NCBI RefSeq assembly: GCF_009914755.1
Contig: NC_060926.1
Reading direction: 5' to 3' (one strand)
From: the human T2T-CHM13v2.0 reference genome, Homo sapiens
DNA: 64,000 nucleotides
Below, in pieces: positions 35,845 through 57,420 of the stretch. The stretch's first letter is position 1; the number at the start of each line of letters is the position of its first letter. The position numbers and the translations under genes were made by a program. The notes beneath the pieces were generated by a model. It did not search any database, was not told the DNA's origin, and saw only the letters and a program-made list of their open reading frames with translations.

Positions 35845-38800
35845 CAGAGGTTTATAAACTTGAAAAAAGGCCAGAAAGGTGAGGTGTAAAAAACCACCAA
35901 AAGTATAATCCAACTTTATTTTATATGGTATAAGATTTAACAAACATATATAATGCCAGAGATTGTACTCTAAACTTCATATTGAAAAAATATAATTTGA
36001 AAATAGAAATAATTATCCCAAGTTTCGTAATTTATTACTTCTCAGATTTGAAATCCGAAATCTAACATTCCTTTCTTAGGGCCCAAGATATCAATCAGCA
36101 TCAGGTTGTGAATCTTGCATAGCAACGTGCAGCAGAGAATTCACCTTTCCTTTAACTGGGAGCAATATTTAGTTTTACTTAGTTTCATAAGAGAAAATAG
36201 CTGCTCATAAACATAGGTATTTCCAAACATGCACAGAATCTTTGCACAATGTTTTTTATATTTAGGGTAACCACTACCTAGGAATTTGTAGAATTCTGGG
36301 ATTCGCACATCATCATATTTAGTTTTCAGTATAGTGTTGCACTGCAATTCAATAACTTCCATTTGCAGCTCTGCATTCACATGATTAATATTCATCAAGA
36401 AAGGTGAACTGAACAATATCAGTTCATTTTCATAAAGTTTGCAATCAGATAATCTTTTTTGGAATTCAGTCTTCAATTCTTTAATTTTTGGAATATAGTT
36501 CAGGCCATCGCTTTCATTTTCAGAAACTAATTTCAGTGTAGGGAAGTGGGCCAGATTGTTCCTTGTCAAATGAGTTTCCCAAAGACACAATTTTGCTAGG
36601 AATTAGTGAATTGAATCATACATTTGTGTAACCACTTGTGAATGTCTTTGCAGAGAAATATCCAATGTATTTAGATGTGTTGTAATGTTAATCAAAAAGG
36701 CTAAGTCTTTGACCCAATTTTTGCTAGTGAGCTGAGGCACAGATTTTCCTTTAGAGGACATGAAAAAGTCAATTTCTTCCAACAGTTCAAAAAACTACTT
36801 TAGCACCATACCACGACTCAGCCACTTCACTTCCATGTCACAGAACAGGCTTCCATATTGTGCATCTAACTCACTGAACAAAGTGTTGAACTTTCTGTGG
36901 TTTGAGCCATGGGAATGTATCCAGGTTATGCTGTAAATTACTATGTCCATGACGTGATCCATTTTTAACTTTTTAGCACAAAGTGATTCCTGGAGAATGA
37001 GGCCATGCACACACTTAAGTTCTGTGCCTTTGCAAAGCCCTGCCACCTTAGATTTAGTTTTGTAACAAGTTGTTTAACACCAACCATTGCAGAATTACCA
37101 TCTGTGCTAACACTTACTAATTTTGACCAGTCTACATTAAATTTTTTAAGACTTTTCTCAACACATAAAAATATGTCATTTCCTGATGCTGTGCCTGTTA
37201 TGGGTACCATATCTAAAAGTTCTTCGGTCACATCAAAAGTTTCATCAACACCACGAATGAACACAGCCAACTGGGGAGCATTATTTATATCAGTGTTCCC
37301 ATGAGCTGCGATAGAGAAAGCCACAAATGATTTCACTTTTTCTTGAAACCTGTCCTGTAAGTTTTCAGCCATATCATCAACATGCTGAGCAATAATGTTA
37401 CCAGTTAGTCTTATATTTGCAAATGCTTGTCTCTGTTCAGGGCACATAATTTCTGCTGCATTCAACAAGCATTCTTTTATAAACTCCCCATCTGTAAAAG
37501 GTTTTGATGCCCGGGCAATTTTCTCACTTAATATATAACTACACTCCATAGCAGCATCACCTATTTTATTCACATTCAAAAGCAAGTCATGTTGAAATCT
37601 CAGTCTTTTTTTCAGTTTGTTAAGTTTTTTGTCACGCATCTTTTCTGTATATCCATCGTGGTTCTTGCTATGGTTTGTTTCATAATAGTGTCTTAGGGTA
37701 TGCTCTTTCAACACAGACAGACTTTGCATATTCAACATGTAGGAACATTCTTTACTTCCACAAAAAAAAATAGGCTCTCTCCCATTTTTCTTGAAAAGTG
37801 TGGATGTCTTGTTCTATACTTTGTCTTTCCACTTGTGGAAGAGACAAATGCATAAGAAATATTAAAATGTCATCCTTTTTTTTTTTTTTCCCCAAGACAG
37901 AGTTTCGCTCTGTCGCCCGGGCTGGAGTGCAGTGGTGCGATCTTGGCTCACTGCAACCTCCACCTCCCGAGTTCAAGGAATTCTCCTGCCTCAGCCTCCT
38001 GAGTAGCTGGGATTACAGGTATGTGCCATCATACCCGGCTAATTTTTGTTAGAGACGGGGTTTCACCATGCCGGCCAGGCTGGTTTCGAACTCCTGACCT
38101 CATCATCTGCCCTCCTCAGCCTCCCAGTGTTGGGATTACAGGCATGAGCCACCATGCCCAGCCATGTCATCTTTACTATAAAAAAAAAGGGCTATTTTCT
38201 AAGAAAAAAGTACTAACTCTATGTTTAAAAGTGCAAGTGTTGTGCTGTTCCCACCGCTGTTGGTGGGGAGACCCTCAGGAACTGTGGGGGTTACCAGCAA
38301 ACAAGAGCAAAGGCCACACCTAAAAGGAAGCAGCTACTTCTCATCGCCAGCCAACTGCTGCCATGTGGGAATGCAGCCACGGTGCCACCATGGCTGCATT
38401 TTCTTTCCTTTTTCTTTGAGACAGACAGGGTCTCACTCTGTCCCCTCGGCTGGAGTGCAGTGGCACCATCATGGCTCACTGTAGCCTCGACCTCCCAGGC
38501 TCAGGCAATCCTCCTACCTCAGTCTCCTGAGTTAGCTAGGACTACAGGTATGCAACACCACGCCCAGCTAATTTTTTTTTTTTTTTTTTTTTTTTACAGA
38601 TGGGGTCTCTCCATGTTGCCCCGCTGGTCTTGAACTCCAGGGCTCAAGCGATCCACCCACCTCAGCCTCCCAAAGTGCTGGGATTACAAGTGTGAACCAC
38701 TGCACCTGGGCAGATTTTCTGTTGTATCAAAAGAAGCTGGAAATCCAGGGGTTTATGTGAAATTTTTTGAAATACTCATAACAAATTCAATGGTCTCTTA

Positions 38801-38866
38801 CAGAATAAGCCAACATGTTTGCCAATCAGATAAGGCAAATTAGGGACACTGGTTTGGGGTCACTTG
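35845..38866 (-). mobile_element. Near full-length Charlie8/MER102-family hAT transposon (about 2.4 kb after removing two Alus)
   Basis: MER102-like termini (cagaggtttataaacttg...; ...ccaactgctgccatgtgggaatg...aagaagctggaaatccagggg...ggtttggggtcacttg) enclosing a transposase ORF; end positions approximate, TSD not convincingly seen. Confidence 0.75.
36040..37850 (-). pseudogene. Disrupted hAT (Buster/Charlie8, GTF2IRD2-like) transposase, about 590 codons
   Basis: ORFs 37752..37976, 36965..37738, 36795..37046, 36141..36590: [53 protein letters not shown]; frameshifts ~37765, ~37725, ~37050, ~36145; stops ~37735, 36795, 36603. Confidence 0.92.
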
Positions 38867-39533
38867 TTTAAACCTGCAAAAACACTACTTGAAGAAAATT
38901 AATATCTGAAGAGAATTAAATATCTAATTCTGAAACCACAGATATAAGAGCTTGTTCAAACAAAATCCTAGAGGGTGCCCAAAAAAGAAAAAATAAACTG
39001 ATGGGTTTCCTTTTTTTTGTTTTGAGACAAGAGGTCTGGCTCTGTTACCCAGGCTGGAGTGCAGTGGTGTGATCTCGGCCAGGTGTGGTGGCGGGCACCT
39101 GTAATCCCAGCTACTCGGGAAGCTGAGGCAGGAGAATCGCTTGAACCTGGGAGGCAGAGGTTGCAGTGAGCCGAGACTGTGCCACTGCACTCCAGCCTGG
39201 GCGACAGAGAGAGACTCCCTCTAAAAAAATAAATAAATAAAAATAAAATAAAATAAAATAAAAAATAAAGTGCTGAGTGGCCTTCCCATCTGTAGTCTGG
39301 CTACTCGGGAGGCTGAGGTAGGAGGATCACCTGAGCCCAGGAAATCGAGACTGCCGCGAGCCATGATTGTGCCACTGCGCTCCTGCCTGGGCGAAGGGAG
39401 TGAGACCCTGTCTCAAAATAATAATAAAAAAATAAAGTGCCGAGTGCCCCTAACCTCATACCAGAGGATCCCTTGGGATCCACCTGTGACAACCCTGGTA
39501 AATCTCAATCCTCAGAGCTCTGGGACCCCTCAC

Positions 39534-39691
39534 CTCTCCAGGTGCTGTTCTTTCTATCTCTAGTTTCTTGGCCCTGGCTTTTCTCTCCAATATGGTCGAG
39601 AACTACGGCAAGCCCATCAATCTCTGTTCCCTGCTTTTCTTCCAAGGCTCTCTCTGTCTCAGCTTGTGACTTGAATTCAATATATGCAATC
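39534..39691 (-). pseudogene. NCL-paralog exon 9 (158 nt, open frame)
   Basis: ttgcag|G IAYIEFKSQAETERALEEKQGTEIDGLAVVLDHIGEKSQGQETRDRKNSTWR G|gtgagg; same length and phase as NCL exon 9 (82-239). Confidence 0.95.
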
Positions 39692-56001: not shown

Positions 56002-56074
56002 CTCATCTTCCCCATCTTCTACCTCCTTTGGGGAAAGACTTATTTTCTTCAGTTCACCTTGACCTTTTTTCCTG
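55966..56074 (-). pseudogene. NCL-paralog exon 2
   Basis: [35 protein letters not shown]|gtaatt vs NCL GKNQGDPKKMAPPPKEVEEDSEDEEMSEDEEDDSSGEE|gtaatt; tandem GAG-CAG acceptor (56074 or 56071). Confidence 0.9.
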
Positions 56075-56669
56075 CTCAAAATAGACAAGATTATTATTAG
56101 GCACATGACAAGGCCTTCACACATTCCAAGCCAGGCACGTTTTGTCTCTGGTATTTCCAACAGTAAACTGGCATTTGGAATAAACTTATGTTAGGCCTCA
56201 TCTTAACTTTTAATTTTCATTTGGTATCTTTTACTCACACCAGCGAACAGAAAAACAAATACAAAAGGTGATTTTTGATGTTGTAGGTGAGGTCTCCCAT
56301 ACCTCTTCTTTTGCCACAATCGATAAGTGGAAACTCCTTAAGAAAAAAAAAAAAAAAAAAAAAGACAAATTCCCAGGAATTCCTTCCTATTCCTCTCATT
56401 CTGATCCGTCACGTGTTTTCAAGTAACTGTTTAAAAAATATATATATAGTTCCACTACAGACTACTCAAATGGAAGCACATTGGGCCAAAATACAGGGGA
56501 CAAAGGGCCAAAAACAGTACCTGCAATTCAAGTACCTTTACTTCGCCAGTCAGATAATTCTGTGAACTGGGTCAGCGTCCATCACTACCCCCACCAGAAT
56601 TCAGAACACACATGAGTCTATAACCCTCGCTGCCCACAGCAGCCCTTGTCCCTAACAGGTTTTCCTTTA

Positions 56670-57420
56670 AGGCTGTCGCGGTGCGCCCCTGCAAGCCACC
56701 GCGCGTGACGGACGCGGGCACGACGCCTGGGGACAGCCCGAAGAAAACCGCAGGCGCCGACACGCTGGTGACGCCCTCTCAGCTATTGCCCCAGATCCAA
56801 GGCGCGCGGGGAAGACGGCCACGTAAAGATACGGCGCCCTGGTGACTCCGCCTCGCCCAATCAGAGCCCGCGCAACCCCTGAACCAATCCTGAGCCGCGA
56901 CCCTGGGAGGGGCGGGCGGTGCGGGAGCCTGGGGGCGTGAGTCTTGAGCCGGGGTGGAGGGGGGGCCGCACGTGCTGCGCCTGCGCGTGGAGCGGACATT
57001 TTGCTGCGGTCTAGCGCGGGAGGCGGGGTTTTGGGTTCGCTGGTCCAGGTGCGCGCGGTGTCCCAGGTCTTCGCGCCAGGTTGGCGCGGGAGAAGGCCGA
57101 GGTGCCCCAGAGTTCGAGGAGTTGGTGACGGTCACGCGGTGCGACGCTCCATGGCGGAGGGGCAGTCGGAAAGTGAATAGCACTCGTTAAAAGCGACCAG
57201 TCCGTAAGGGCGCGTGTGTCGGCGCCGTTACGGACCCCAGCGCTCGGGGTCGTTAAACCGTTTAAGTCGCGTCCCGCCCAGTGAGGGCTATGTTAGCGTC
57301 CTCGCCGTTTCCAGCCGTGAAGGAGGCACTGAGACGACAGCTGAGGGTCTCTCCGTTAAGGCTGTCGCTGCTGTAGGGGCCCTCGCCCGCTGCGTGTTTG
57401 TGCCACCCAGCGTACTGGGT
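56670..57420. promoter_or_regulatory. CpG island promoter of the NCL paralog/LINC00471, homologous to the NCL promoter
   Basis: acggcgccctggtgactccgc (56831) vs NCL acggcgccctcgtgactccgc (6972); CCAATC boxes and GC box in the same order. Confidence 0.85.

What the first reader, a model, noticed from the sequence alone, without database searches (positions are those of the whole stretch)
35845..56920. Fossil nucleolin-Charlie8 transposase fusion gene: NCL duplicate exons 1-9 poised to splice in frame onto a hAT transposase
Seen: the NCL duplicate stops after exon 9 (phase-1 donor TGG AGA G|gtgagg at 39533). 1.7 kb downstream on the same strand, the transposase 5' end has a pyrimidine-rich acceptor tttcttatgcatttgtctcttccacaag|TG at 37832/37831. 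Joining them gives ...[29 protein letters not shown], the transposase frame. AATAAA(-) follows at 36031 and 35915. I saw no NCL exon 10-14 homologs (RRM3, RRM4, RGG). Known: GTF2IRD2 arose the same way, as a duplicated GTF2I whose 3' end was replaced in frame by a Charlie8 transposase exon. Inference: the ancestor encoded a roughly 950-aa protein (acidic region + NLS + RRM1-2 + BED-like finger + hAT fold/dimerisation domain), an RNA-binding/DNA-binding host-transposase chimera. It is dead here but may be intact in other mammals. In-frame joining has a 1-in-3 chance prior, so synteny is needed.
Basis: partly seen in the sequence, partly recalled or inferred. Interest (0 to 1): 0.95.

Follow-up and report, generated by a model that had tools for sequence, protein, structure and literature searches.

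The report
Dead nucleolin-transposase fusion gene (LINC00471)
The stretch between NCL and NMUR1 is the human wreck of an old placental-mammal gene that spliced the front half of a nucleolin copy onto a captured Charlie8 transposase, a gene still predicted intact in bats, cats, a rhinoceros and elephants.

Summary
Observation confirmed and interpretation supported. On the minus strand, 56925-35915 holds a nucleolin (NCL) paralogue: core promoter plus exons 1-9, and no trace of exons 10-14. A Charlie8-type hAT transposase reading frame follows it.

It is phase 1, like the exon-9 donor.

Human-only tests show past selection:
- Exons 5, 6, 8 and 9 (511 nt, 77% identical to NCL) have no indel, no stop and 8 of 8 splice dinucleotides.
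- The transposase branch has omega about 0.27-0.39, against 0.6-2.3 in nine dead copies.

The decisive result is a set of predicted 650-990 aa proteins with RRMs and this transposase. They occur in three vespertilionid bats, felids, black rhinoceros and African elephant. A galago model covers the transposase part only.

Human sequences nest inside that clade in both trees (support 100). The human copy has lost its start codon, has an Alu in exon 7, and carries two stops and four frameshifts in the transposase. Five of six LINC00471 exons reuse its splice sites.

It is a new member of a known kind (host-transposase fusion, sibling of GTF2IRD2). I found no paper describing it. Synteny and RNA junctions could not be tested here.

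The parts
56831..56925 (-). Core promoter copied from NCL (two CCAAT-type boxes), inside a retained CpG island at about 56500-57500
   Evidence: blastn of NCL 6972-7066 against 56831-56925: 74.5% over 98 nt, E 1.7e-9. CpG observed/expected is 0.8-1.2 in 56500-57499. A tblastn hit covers the same stretch.
56521..56816 (-). LINC00471 exon 1, in the position expected for the NCL-like exon 1. The sequence no longer aligns to NCL exon 1.
   Evidence: Hub annotation gives the exon. The alignment attempt showed no convincing match.
55966..56071 (-). Exon-2-like segment. The orthologues' start codon (M of MSLSPKE) reads ATA in human at 56043-56041.
   Evidence: blastn 76.6% to NCL exon 2. tblastn of rhinoceros and elephant residues 1-29 onto 56043-55957, 79% and 64%. 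Sequence read.
51617..51782 (-). Exon-3-like segment, shortened (166 nt against 478 nt in NCL) with the phase kept 0 to 1. The acceptor and first 11 codons are recognisable.
   Evidence: Alignment and translation. Rhinoceros residues 26-97 match 51785-51591 at 51%.
49985..50113 (-). Exon-4-like acidic stretch, degenerate. Borders are uncertain.
   Evidence: Weak blastn hits without the low-complexity filter. Translation, alignment.
49608..49694 (-). Exon-5-like segment, intact: no indel, no stop, AG and GT kept. Identical to a LINC00471 exon.
   Evidence: 71 of 87 bases identical to NCL exon 5, ungapped; flanks cag / gtaac.
48939..49080 (-). Exon-6-like segment (first half of RRM1), intact
   Evidence: 105 of 142 bases identical, ungapped; flanks tag / gtaaat. 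78% aa identity to the Myotis fusion against 65% for NCL.
46566..47037 (-). Exon-7-like segment, split by an Alu (about 46690-46976) and carrying small indels near its 3' end. LINC00471 exon 46574-46795 uses part of the Alu.
   Evidence: blastn of NCL 1432-1558 onto 46566-46680 and of NCL 1543-1600 onto 46975-47037. Alignment.
45520..45643 (-). Exon-8-like segment (first half of RRM2), intact. The last LINC00471 exon starts at its acceptor and reads through its donor.
   Evidence: 96 of 124 bases identical, ungapped; flanks tag / gtatgt.
39534..39691 (-). Exon-9-like segment (second half of RRM2), intact, ending in a phase-1 donor (GT at 39533-39532)
   Evidence: 121 of 158 bases identical, ungapped; flanks cag / gtgagg. 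79% aa identity to the rhinoceros fusion against 48% for NCL.
38186..38394 (-). 5' non-coding part of the Charlie8-type element inside the former intron 9. It lies between two later Alu insertions (37876-38185, with target duplication A(A/G)GATGACAT, and 38395-38735).
   Evidence: Alignment with the sequence upstream of GTF2IRD2 and of the chr19 and chr11 copies. The ends of the element were not found.
37832..37860 (-). Pyrimidine tract and AG (37833-37832): the acceptor, which lies in codons 5/6 of the transposase's own reading frame. The natural ATG of other copies reads TTG here.
   Evidence: Alignment with GTF2IRD2, chr11 and chr19 copies. Free transposases start MSLSK|VGKRK.
36091..37831 (-). 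Transposase-derived last coding exon. Lesions: +2 nt in the T run at about 37770, -4 nt after 37727, -1 nt after 37056, TAG at 36797-36795, TAA at 36605-36603, -4 nt after 36148. The ancestral stop TGA is at 36093-36091.
   Evidence: Reading frames, pairwise alignment. 83% aa identity (453 of 546 columns) to the rhinoceros orthologue.
35915..36036 (-). Two AATAAA signals (36036-36031 and 35920-35915), the first 55 nt after the ancestral stop
   Evidence: Read. Homology to the chr19 element runs to about 35940.

Best explanation
The region is the human unitary pseudogene of a placental-mammal host-transposase fusion gene.

Origin (order of events inferred):
- On the eutherian stem, NCL was duplicated in tandem, at least from the core promoter through exon 9.
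- A Charlie8-type hAT transposon came to lie downstream of exon 9 on the same strand.
- The phase-1 donor of exon 9 was spliced to a cryptic phase-1 acceptor in codons 5/6 of the transposase frame (MSLSK|VGKRK).

Product: one reading frame encoding an acidic/basic N-terminus, RRM1-RRM2, a C2H2 zinc finger of the transposase, and a hAT body. The first catalytic Asp of that body is His in every member, so the protein is presumably a nucleic-acid-binding protein and not an active transposase.

Fate:
- The gene stayed under purifying selection for most of its history and is still predicted intact in some bats, felids, a rhinoceros and elephants.
- On the human line it died late. My rough estimate is about 0.025 substitutions per site ago, after the split from galagos.
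- Its promoter and most splice sites now drive the non-coding RNA LINC00471.
For: Shown by tool results:

1. All nine NCL-like exons are colinear on one strand, and the core promoter is copied.
2. Exons 5, 6, 8 and 9 are 393 of 511 nt identical to NCL, with 0 indels, 0 stops in 166 codons, 8 of 8 splice dinucleotides and dN/dS 0.30. Dead Charlie copies show 216 gap openings per 2379 mismatches. By my arithmetic that predicts about 10 indels here.
3. Changes assigned to the human transposase branch, using dead copies as outgroup: 37 synonymous and 43 non-synonymous over 409 usable of 527 codons. Omega is 0.27 (kappa 1) or 0.39 (kappa 3), P = 3e-8 or 3e-5, with 0.065 changes per site. Nine dead copies give omega 0.61-1.62 (kappa 1) or 0.88-2.28 (kappa 3) and 0.15-0.22 changes per site.
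4. Ten protein clusters with this transposase at 70-76% identity to the human 282-aa frame. Seven of the ten also carry Pfam RRM_1 in the precomputed column. On my own scan, P0007 has two RRM stretches and the zinc finger.
5. The join point in all full models is the predicted one.
6. Trees. In the transposase tree, human sits inside an 11-row fusion clade (support 100) in species-tree order: elephant, then human and galago, then rhinoceros, cats and bats. In the RRM tree, human sits inside an 8-row fusion clade (100). That clade is sister to eutherian NCL (82), with marsupial and monotreme NCL outside.
7. His replaces the first catalytic Asp in 11 of 11 fusion rows and in 0 of 16 other rows.
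8. No other close copy exists in the human genome.
Against: - Synteny of the other species' genes could not be checked. Orthology rests on sequence and trees alone.
- The orthologues are computer-predicted models and differ in exon content. The cat and elephant models lack exons 6-7 (RRM1). The rhinoceros isoform lacks exons 4, 5, 7 and 8. The galago model has only the transposase part. Some of this may be decay, or predictors skipping bad exons.
- Bat exons 2-4 look more like NCL itself than like the other orthologues. This is unexplained; gene conversion is one possibility.
- The human copy has an in-frame ATG two codons upstream of the lost natural start, so a stand-alone transposase frame is not excluded for part of its history.
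- No annotated human transcript joins exon 9 to the transposase. LINC00471 ends at 44526 (hub annotation).
- Pfam found nothing on the human frame pieces.
- 118 of 527 codons were ambiguous and dropped from the branch count.
Confidence: 0.9

Rival explanations
1. Chance neighbours: a partial NCL duplicate that was a pseudogene from birth, with an ordinary dead Charlie8 insertion behind it. The matching phase is a 1-in-3 coincidence and neither part was ever a gene.
For: The acceptor is a family feature also present in dead copies, so its presence here proves nothing by itself. No human transcript joins the two parts (hub annotation).
Against: Both halves carry strong marks of past constraint. 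Fused proteins with the same join exist in at least four other mammalian orders. Human sequences nest within them.
Confidence: 0.02
2. Two separate former genes on the human line: a truncated nucleolin-like RRM protein ending in intron 9, and a stand-alone domesticated transposase using the in-frame ATG at about 37853. The fusion seen in other species would be only one of several isoforms, or a predictor's merger.
For: There is an in-frame ATG two codons upstream of the former start. The frame of exon 9 runs 14 codons into the intron before a stop (frame 39505-39729). The galago model holds the transposase part alone. Exon content varies among models.
Against: Three annotation sources give the same join: NCBI models; the Myotis, Pipistrellus and Cnephaeus records; and an unnamed 2546-nt contig coding for exons 7-9 plus the transposase, P0002. 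The natural ATG is lost in human, as it is in GTF2IRD2. I did not look for a separate promoter upstream of the transposase.
Confidence: 0.06
3. The fusion is real but was never functional anywhere. It is a slowly decaying relic that gene predictors stitch into open frames.
For: The distribution is patchy: no anthropoid, rodent, dog, cow or horse model appears among the listed hits. Exon content of the N-terminal half varies.
Against: Transposase frames of about 550 codons are uninterrupted in 10 clusters from five orders. The human branch, even with its dead period, has omega 0.27-0.39. Terminal branches in the protein tree are short, 0.07-0.13.
Confidence: 0.02

Closest known systems
GTF2IRD2 (GTF2I-family duplicate fused to a Charlie8 transposase exon; placental mammals)
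   Same: It has the same transposon family and the same join point...ELSN|VGKRK against ...WR|VGKR. In both, a duplicated host gene had its 3' end replaced. Both are of eutherian age and both have lost the natural ATG and one catalytic Asp. The human C-terminal 153 aa are 82% identical to it.
   Different: The host part is nucleolin RRMs (RNA binding) rather than GTF2I repeats. The fusion clade changes the first Asp to His, whereas GTF2IRD2 loses the second Asp and has a 41-codon deletion. The two form separate clades with support 100 each. GTF2IRD2 is alive in human and this gene is dead.
Transposase capture by alternative splicing (SETMAR, PGBD3-CSB, KRABINER), as described in the bioRxiv preprint 10.1101/2020.05.07.082677
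   Same: A transposon lies downstream of host exons, a splice acceptor already present in the transposon is used, and the result is an in-frame host-transposase protein. (Passages read.)
   Different: The passages I read of that preprint frame the captured products as transcription factors. Here the host part is an RNA-recognition module. The parent was a duplicate, not the parental gene itself.
Nucleolin (NCL)
   Same: The promoter, exon-intron plan and phases of exons 1-9 match, as do the acidic N-terminus and RRM1-RRM2. The fusion clade is sister to eutherian NCL.
   Different: It has no RRM3, RRM4 or glycine/arginine-rich tail. It is about 60-65% identical over RRM1-2. Exon 3 is shortened in human, rhinoceros, cat and elephant.
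Ubiquitin-like + Charlie8 fusion (predicted in elephants and felids; dead in human at chr11:65448734-65450803)
   Same: This is a third capture of the same transposase at the same join point...GRMLG|VGKRK. It is also dead in human.
   Different: The host part is a ubiquitin-family domain (Pfam PF00240). It keeps all three catalytic residues.

Membership tests
Host-transposase fusion gene (transposase capture) | One reading frame joining host-derived domains to a transposase-derived domain | tested here: met
   P0007 has RRM_1 (two stretches) and the transposase zinc finger in one 956-aa protein. Seven of ten orthologous clusters list PF00076. In human the frame is broken, so the human copy is a pseudogene.
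Host-transposase fusion gene (transposase capture) | Host exon spliced to an acceptor inside the transposon | tested here: met
   Human genomic phase-1 donor and phase-1 AG. The same AG is present in the transposon family. The protein join is at that codon in all full models. RNA reads were not available.
Host-transposase fusion gene (transposase capture) | Transposase part kept by purifying selection | tested here: met
   The human branch has omega 0.27-0.39, against 0.6-2.3 in nine dead copies. Uninterrupted frames are found in five orders.
Host-transposase fusion gene (transposase capture) | Syntenic orthologues across species | not testable with these tools
   No mammalian genome other than the window's own is held. 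Orthology is inferred from trees.
hAT superfamily, Charlie8-type transposase | Closest relatives are the Charlie8-derived exon of GTF2IRD2 and free elements of the same type | tested here: met
   a support-99 clade with GTF2IRD2, the ubiquitin-like fusion and a near-consensus free transposase. The name Charlie8 comes from the literature on GTF2IRD2. No repeat library was run here.
hAT superfamily, Charlie8-type transposase | Catalytic Asp-Asp-Glu triad | tested here: not met
   The first Asp is His in 11 of 11 fusion rows. The second Asp and the Glu are kept. The protein is derived from a transposase but is presumably inactive.
hAT superfamily, Charlie8-type transposase | C-terminal hAT dimerisation domain | tested here: inconclusive
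   Pfam Dimer_Tnp_hAT scores 21.9 bits in P0010 (cut-off 21.4) and 20.5 in P0015. It is not reported at E<=0.001 in P0007 or P0001, although that region is the best conserved one.
hAT superfamily, Charlie8-type transposase | Terminal inverted repeats and 8-bp target duplication around the human element | tested here: inconclusive
   5' non-coding homology reaches at least about 38350 and 3' homology about 35940. The ends could not be fixed.
Nucleolin proper | Four RRMs followed by a glycine/arginine-rich tail | tested here: not met
   Only RRM1-2 are present, and there is no exon 10-14 homologue. It is a paralogue fragment, not a nucleolin.
Unitary pseudogene transcribed as lncRNA | Disabling lesions in human, intact orthologues elsewhere, no intact human copy | tested here: met
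   Lesions. Orthologues. Genome-wide search. Five of six LINC00471 exons share borders with the NCL-like exons (hub annotation).

The most novel reading that the evidence does not exclude
An undescribed placental-mammal gene in which nucleolin's RNA-binding RRM1-2 are fused to a catalytically dead, zinc-finger-bearing, dimerising hAT transposase. It would be a protein able to bridge RNA and DNA. It is kept in a few lineages (vespertilionid bats, felids, rhinoceros, elephants) and lost many times, including on the human line, where its shell became LINC00471. It would be one of three independent eutherian genes born from Charlie8 through the same built-in acceptor in codons 5/6. That would make Charlie8 a serial, ready-made exon donor.
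Probability: 0.55. Interest if true: 0.75.

Novelty: new member of a known kind. Interest (0 to 1): 0.7.

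Why it matters
- It adds a third and a fourth relative to the GTF2IRD2 story. The same transposon family was captured at the same splice point by three different host genes in early placental mammals. 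This turns one anecdote into a repeatable mechanism that can be tested.
- The host part is an RNA-binding module. In the passages I read of the transposase-capture preprint, the captured products are framed as transcription factors, so an RNA-binding host part looks unusual.
- It explains the origin of a human lncRNA, LINC00471, that appears in many cancer-signature papers (listing). Its origin came up in no search I ran; I read only the titles and abstract starts of the ten LINC00471 papers.
- It corrects the automatic name 'GTF2IRD2-like' given to the orthologues.
- It gives a natural loss-of-function series: human and many other lineages dead, a few lineages alive. That series can be used to ask what such a protein does.

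Tried and rejected
- Pfam on five human frame pieces gave nothing meaningful.
- Search for exon 10-14 remnants found none.
- Attempts to fix the element's inverted repeats and target duplication by aligning flanks of six copies were inconclusive.
- Alignment of NCL exon 1 to the duplicate found no convincing match. Only the promoter aligns.
- Literature: 'nucleolin + GTF2IRD2 + transposase' gave 0 papers. 'Charlie8' gave 21, 'host-transposase fusion' 13, 'nucleolin + hAT + domesticated + transposase' 8, 'GTF2IRD2-like' 3 and 'nucleolin + transposase capture' 7. Judged by title and abstract, none describes this gene.
- The list of 106 fusion genes (Table S3 of the transposase-capture paper) could not be seen. 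The preprint's supplements are closed. The journal version was not held under its DOI, 10.1126/science.abc6405, or under PMC8186458. The gene may be listed there.
- A first version of the motif script failed on a missing pattern and was rerun.
- I considered that the high similarity of the C-terminus to GTF2IRD2 might come from gene conversion or recent copying. I rejected this because the two form separate clades, each following the species tree.

Full report
**1. What is there**

The window is human chr2:231942001-232006000 (T2T), and the whole assembly could be searched. The real NCL has exons 1-9 at 82-6923 on the minus strand.

A blastn of that stretch against the rest of the window, Alu hits aside, gives one colinear series on the same strand:

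| NCL exon | Duplicate coordinates | Identity |
|---|---|---|
| 9 | 39529-39704 | 78% |
| 8 | 45510-45659 | 78% |
| 7 | 46566-46680 | 75% |
| 6 | 48935-49091 | 76% |
| 5 | 49603-49697 | 83% |
| 2 | 55956-56087 | 77% |

- Exon 3 is recognisable at its 5' end (51782 downward). Exon 4 is a degenerate acidic stretch near 50000.
- The core promoter is copied too: NCL 6972-7066 aligns to 56831-56925 at 74.5% (E 1.7e-9), with two CCAAT-type boxes, inside a surviving CpG island.
- Introns do not align.
- No trace of exons 10-14 exists in 7201-64000. This was tested with the real NCL 3' half and with the marmoset NCL C-terminus, which as a control found those exons in the true locus.

**2. The transposase and the acceptor**

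From 37831 down to 36091 runs a transposase-like frame in four pieces.

- Its best human relatives are a dead copy on chr11 (57% aa) and the three GTF2IRD2 copies on chr7. These are 56-57% identical over the first 282 aa and 82% over the last 153 aa.
- In GTF2IRD2 the open frame begins only ten codons upstream of that AG, so it must be the acceptor of that gene's transposase exon.
- Free transposases of this type start MSLSK|VGKRK. The acceptor therefore lies in codons 5/6 of the transposase frame and is phase 1.
- NCL exon 9 ends in phase 1 (1447 nt of coding sequence).

**3. Signs of past selection in the human sequence alone**

*NCL-like exons.* Exons 5, 6, 8 and 9 align to NCL without a single gap.

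- 393 of 511 nt are identical. There is no stop in 166 codons, and all eight AG/GT dinucleotides are kept.
- pN is 0.170, pS 0.431 and dN/dS 0.30. Differences by codon position are 35/24/53.
- Dead Charlie copies show 216 gap openings per 2379 mismatches against the same element. At that rate 118 mismatches would bring about 10 indels (my arithmetic).

*Transposase.* I assigned changes to the human branch by using the consensus of 12 other copies as outgroup (11 dead Charlie copies and the chr11 copy L002) and the GTF2IRD2 frame as reference.

- Of 527 codons, 409 were usable and 118 were ambiguous and dropped.
- The human branch has 37 synonymous and 43 non-synonymous changes. Omega is 0.27 (kappa 1) or 0.39 (kappa 3), P = 3e-8 or 3e-5, with 0.065 changes per site.
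- The same procedure on nine dead copies gives omega 0.61-1.62 (kappa 1) or 0.88-2.28 (kappa 3) and 0.15-0.22 changes per site.
- The chr11 copy is intermediate, at 0.41 or 0.58. Section 8 explains why.

Both halves were therefore coding sequence for most of their history.

**4. The decisive result: living orthologues**

A protein search with the human 282-aa frame, asking for longer proteins, returned ten clusters at 63-76% identity that are not GTF2IRD2. A second search, with a bat protein, confirmed them.

| Species | Protein | Length (aa) |
|---|---|---|
| Myotis myotis | P0007 | 956 |
| Pipistrellus kuhlii | P0009 | 946 |
| Cnephaeus nilssonii | P0008 | 988 |
| Felis catus | P0004 | 798 |
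| Lynx canadensis | P0003 | 719 |
| a further felid cluster | P0005 | 648 |
| Diceros bicornis | P0001 | 776 |
| Loxodonta africana | P0006 | 816 |
| Otolemur garnettii (transposase part only) | P0011 | 517 |
| unnamed 2546-nt contig | P0002 | 711 |

- NCBI calls them 'GTF2IRD2-like'. UniProt calls the bat ones 'RRM domain-containing protein'.
- P0007 has two RRM_1 stretches and the Spin-doc zinc finger.
- Mapped back on the window, these proteins match the NCL-like exons better than NCL does. Exon 9 is 79% against 48% for rhinoceros. Exon 6 is 78% against 65% for Myotis.
- The human transposase read-through is 83% identical to rhinoceros (453 of 546 columns). It is 67-69% identical to GTF2IRD2.

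**5. Trees**

*Transposase part* (27 rows, quick maximum likelihood).

- Human lies in an 11-row fusion clade with support 100.
- The order follows the species tree: elephant; human and galago; then rhinoceros, cats and bats (95).
- GTF2IRD2 (100) and a ubiquitin-like fusion (100) are separate clades.

*RRM1-2 part* (26 rows).

- Human lies in an 8-row fusion clade with support 100.
- That clade is sister to eutherian NCL (82). Marsupial and monotreme NCL lie outside.

The duplication and capture therefore date to the eutherian stem, before the placental radiation. This dating is an inference, and the 82 is moderate support.

**6. How it worked, and how it died**

*Inferred product.* Transcription starts from an NCL-type CpG-island promoter. 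Translation starts at the Met that corresponds to the internal Met in NCL exon 2 (orthologues start MSLSPKE or MASPPKE). The protein has an acidic/basic N-terminus, RRM1-2, a C2H2 finger and a hAT body with its conserved C-terminus.

The first catalytic Asp is His in 11 of 11 fusion rows and Asp in all 16 others. The protein is therefore very likely not a transposase. A role as an RNA- and DNA-binding adaptor is my inference, not a shown result.

*Human lesions.*

- Start codon reads ATA at 56043-56041.
- Alu inside exon 7, plus small indels.
- In the transposase: +2 nt at about 37770, -4 nt after 37727, -1 nt after 37056, TAG at 36797-36795, TAA at 36605-36603, -4 nt after 36148.
- The old stop TGA is at 36093-36091, 55 nt before the first AATAAA.

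*Dating.* Two stops and four frameshifts in about 1.7 kb, and omega 0.27 against about 0.13 for a constrained sister branch (the GTF2IRD2 branch), both suggest roughly 0.025 substitutions per site of neutral time. These are hand estimates and rough. The human terminal branch (0.10) is no longer than those of living orthologues (0.07-0.13). The galago frame is open. So the death falls after the galago split, probably within anthropoids.

*LINC00471.* Its exons 55966-56071, 51617-51782, 49608-49694, 46574-46795 and 44526-45643 share borders with NCL-like exons 2, 3, 5, 7 and 8 (hub annotation).

**7. Comparison with what is known**

- The mechanism is transposase capture as described for GTF2IRD2, SETMAR, PGBD3-CSB and KRABINER (preprint 10.1101/2020.05.07.082677, passages read).
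- The Charlie8 origin of the GTF2IRD2 C-terminus is stated in preprint 10.1101/2022.11.24.517799 (about the first 10,000 of its 11,074 characters read).
- Six searches found no paper on a nucleolin-transposase fusion. Ten LINC00471 papers were seen as a listing only, and none concerns its origin by title or abstract.
- The table of 106 fusion genes in the capture paper could not be seen, so prior listing there is possible.
- I file the finding as a new member of a known kind.

**8. Caveats**

- Synteny and RNA junctions were not testable.
- The orthologues are predicted models with varying N-terminal exon content.
- Bat exons 2-4 are more NCL-like than those of the other orthologues, which is unexplained.
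- The element's inverted repeats and target duplication were not found.
- The name Charlie8 rests on the literature, not on a repeat library run here.

**Seen in passing**

The dead chr11 copy is itself the human wreck of a third capture.

- Elephants and felids have predicted proteins with a ubiquitin-family domain joined at the same point...GRMLG|VGKRK.
- Human chr11:65449686-65450291 is 82% identical to the cat-family protein P0015 (Prionailurus). A ubiquitin-like piece lies just upstream, at 65448734-65448901 (79%).
- This accounts for that copy's intermediate omega in section 3.

Noticed in passing
L002 = chr11:65448144-65451791 of the same assembly (outside the window): A second dead host-transposase fusion in human. 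A ubiquitin-like piece (chr11:65448734-65448901, 79% to P0015 residues 57-112) sits just upstream of a broken Charlie8-type frame (82% to P0015 residues 139-340, four stops). Elephants and felids have intact predicted proteins (P0013 673 aa, P0015 712 aa; Pfam ubiquitin plus zinc finger) joined at the same codon as GTF2IRD2 and the nucleolin fusion. From memory the ubiquitin-like part resembles that of FAU. A 70% match at chr11:65114777-65114947 may be FAU itself. I did not verify this.
   Followed up: partly
L003-L005 (chr7 GTF2IRD2 copies), against window 37598-37476: GTF2IRD2 lacks 41 codons that the window copy and the dead copies keep. It has lost the second catalytic Asp (TDG reads STG), whereas the nucleolin fusion lost the first. 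Its branch has very high synonymous change (pS 0.51 against 0.16), mostly towards G/C at third positions.
   Followed up: partly
P0007-P0009 (vespertilionid bats) against window 3108-5755 and 49985-56071: In the three bat proteins, exons 2-4 are long and more like NCL itself (55-79% to human NCL) than like the short exon 3 shared by human, rhinoceros, cat and elephant. Exons 5-9 are clearly of the fusion type. Gene conversion from the neighbouring NCL is one possible explanation.
   Followed up: no
P0010 (source 'lgn', 605 aa, contig 2515 nt) and P0012 (Rousettus, 612 aa): Uninterrupted free transposases of the same type, starting MSLSKVGKRK. P0010 sits on a very short branch (0.021) at the base of the three fusion clades, like a near-consensus element. 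P0012 groups with the ubiquitin-like fusion and may be a partial model of it.
   Followed up: no
window 46690-46976 and 46574-46795: The Alu that split NCL-like exon 7 now supplies the acceptor and first part of a LINC00471 exon. A pseudogene exon has been repaired for a non-coding transcript by an exonised Alu.
   Followed up: partly
window 44429-44640: A U2 snRNA pseudogene (RNU2-22P, hub annotation) lies at the 3' end of the last LINC00471 exon, inside former intron 8. I did not examine it.
   Followed up: no
window 39505-39729 (-): The frame of exon 9 stays open for 14 codons into the intron (..WRGEGSQSSED, then stop). Read-through would give a short RRM-only protein, which bears on the two-genes rival.
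   Followed up: no
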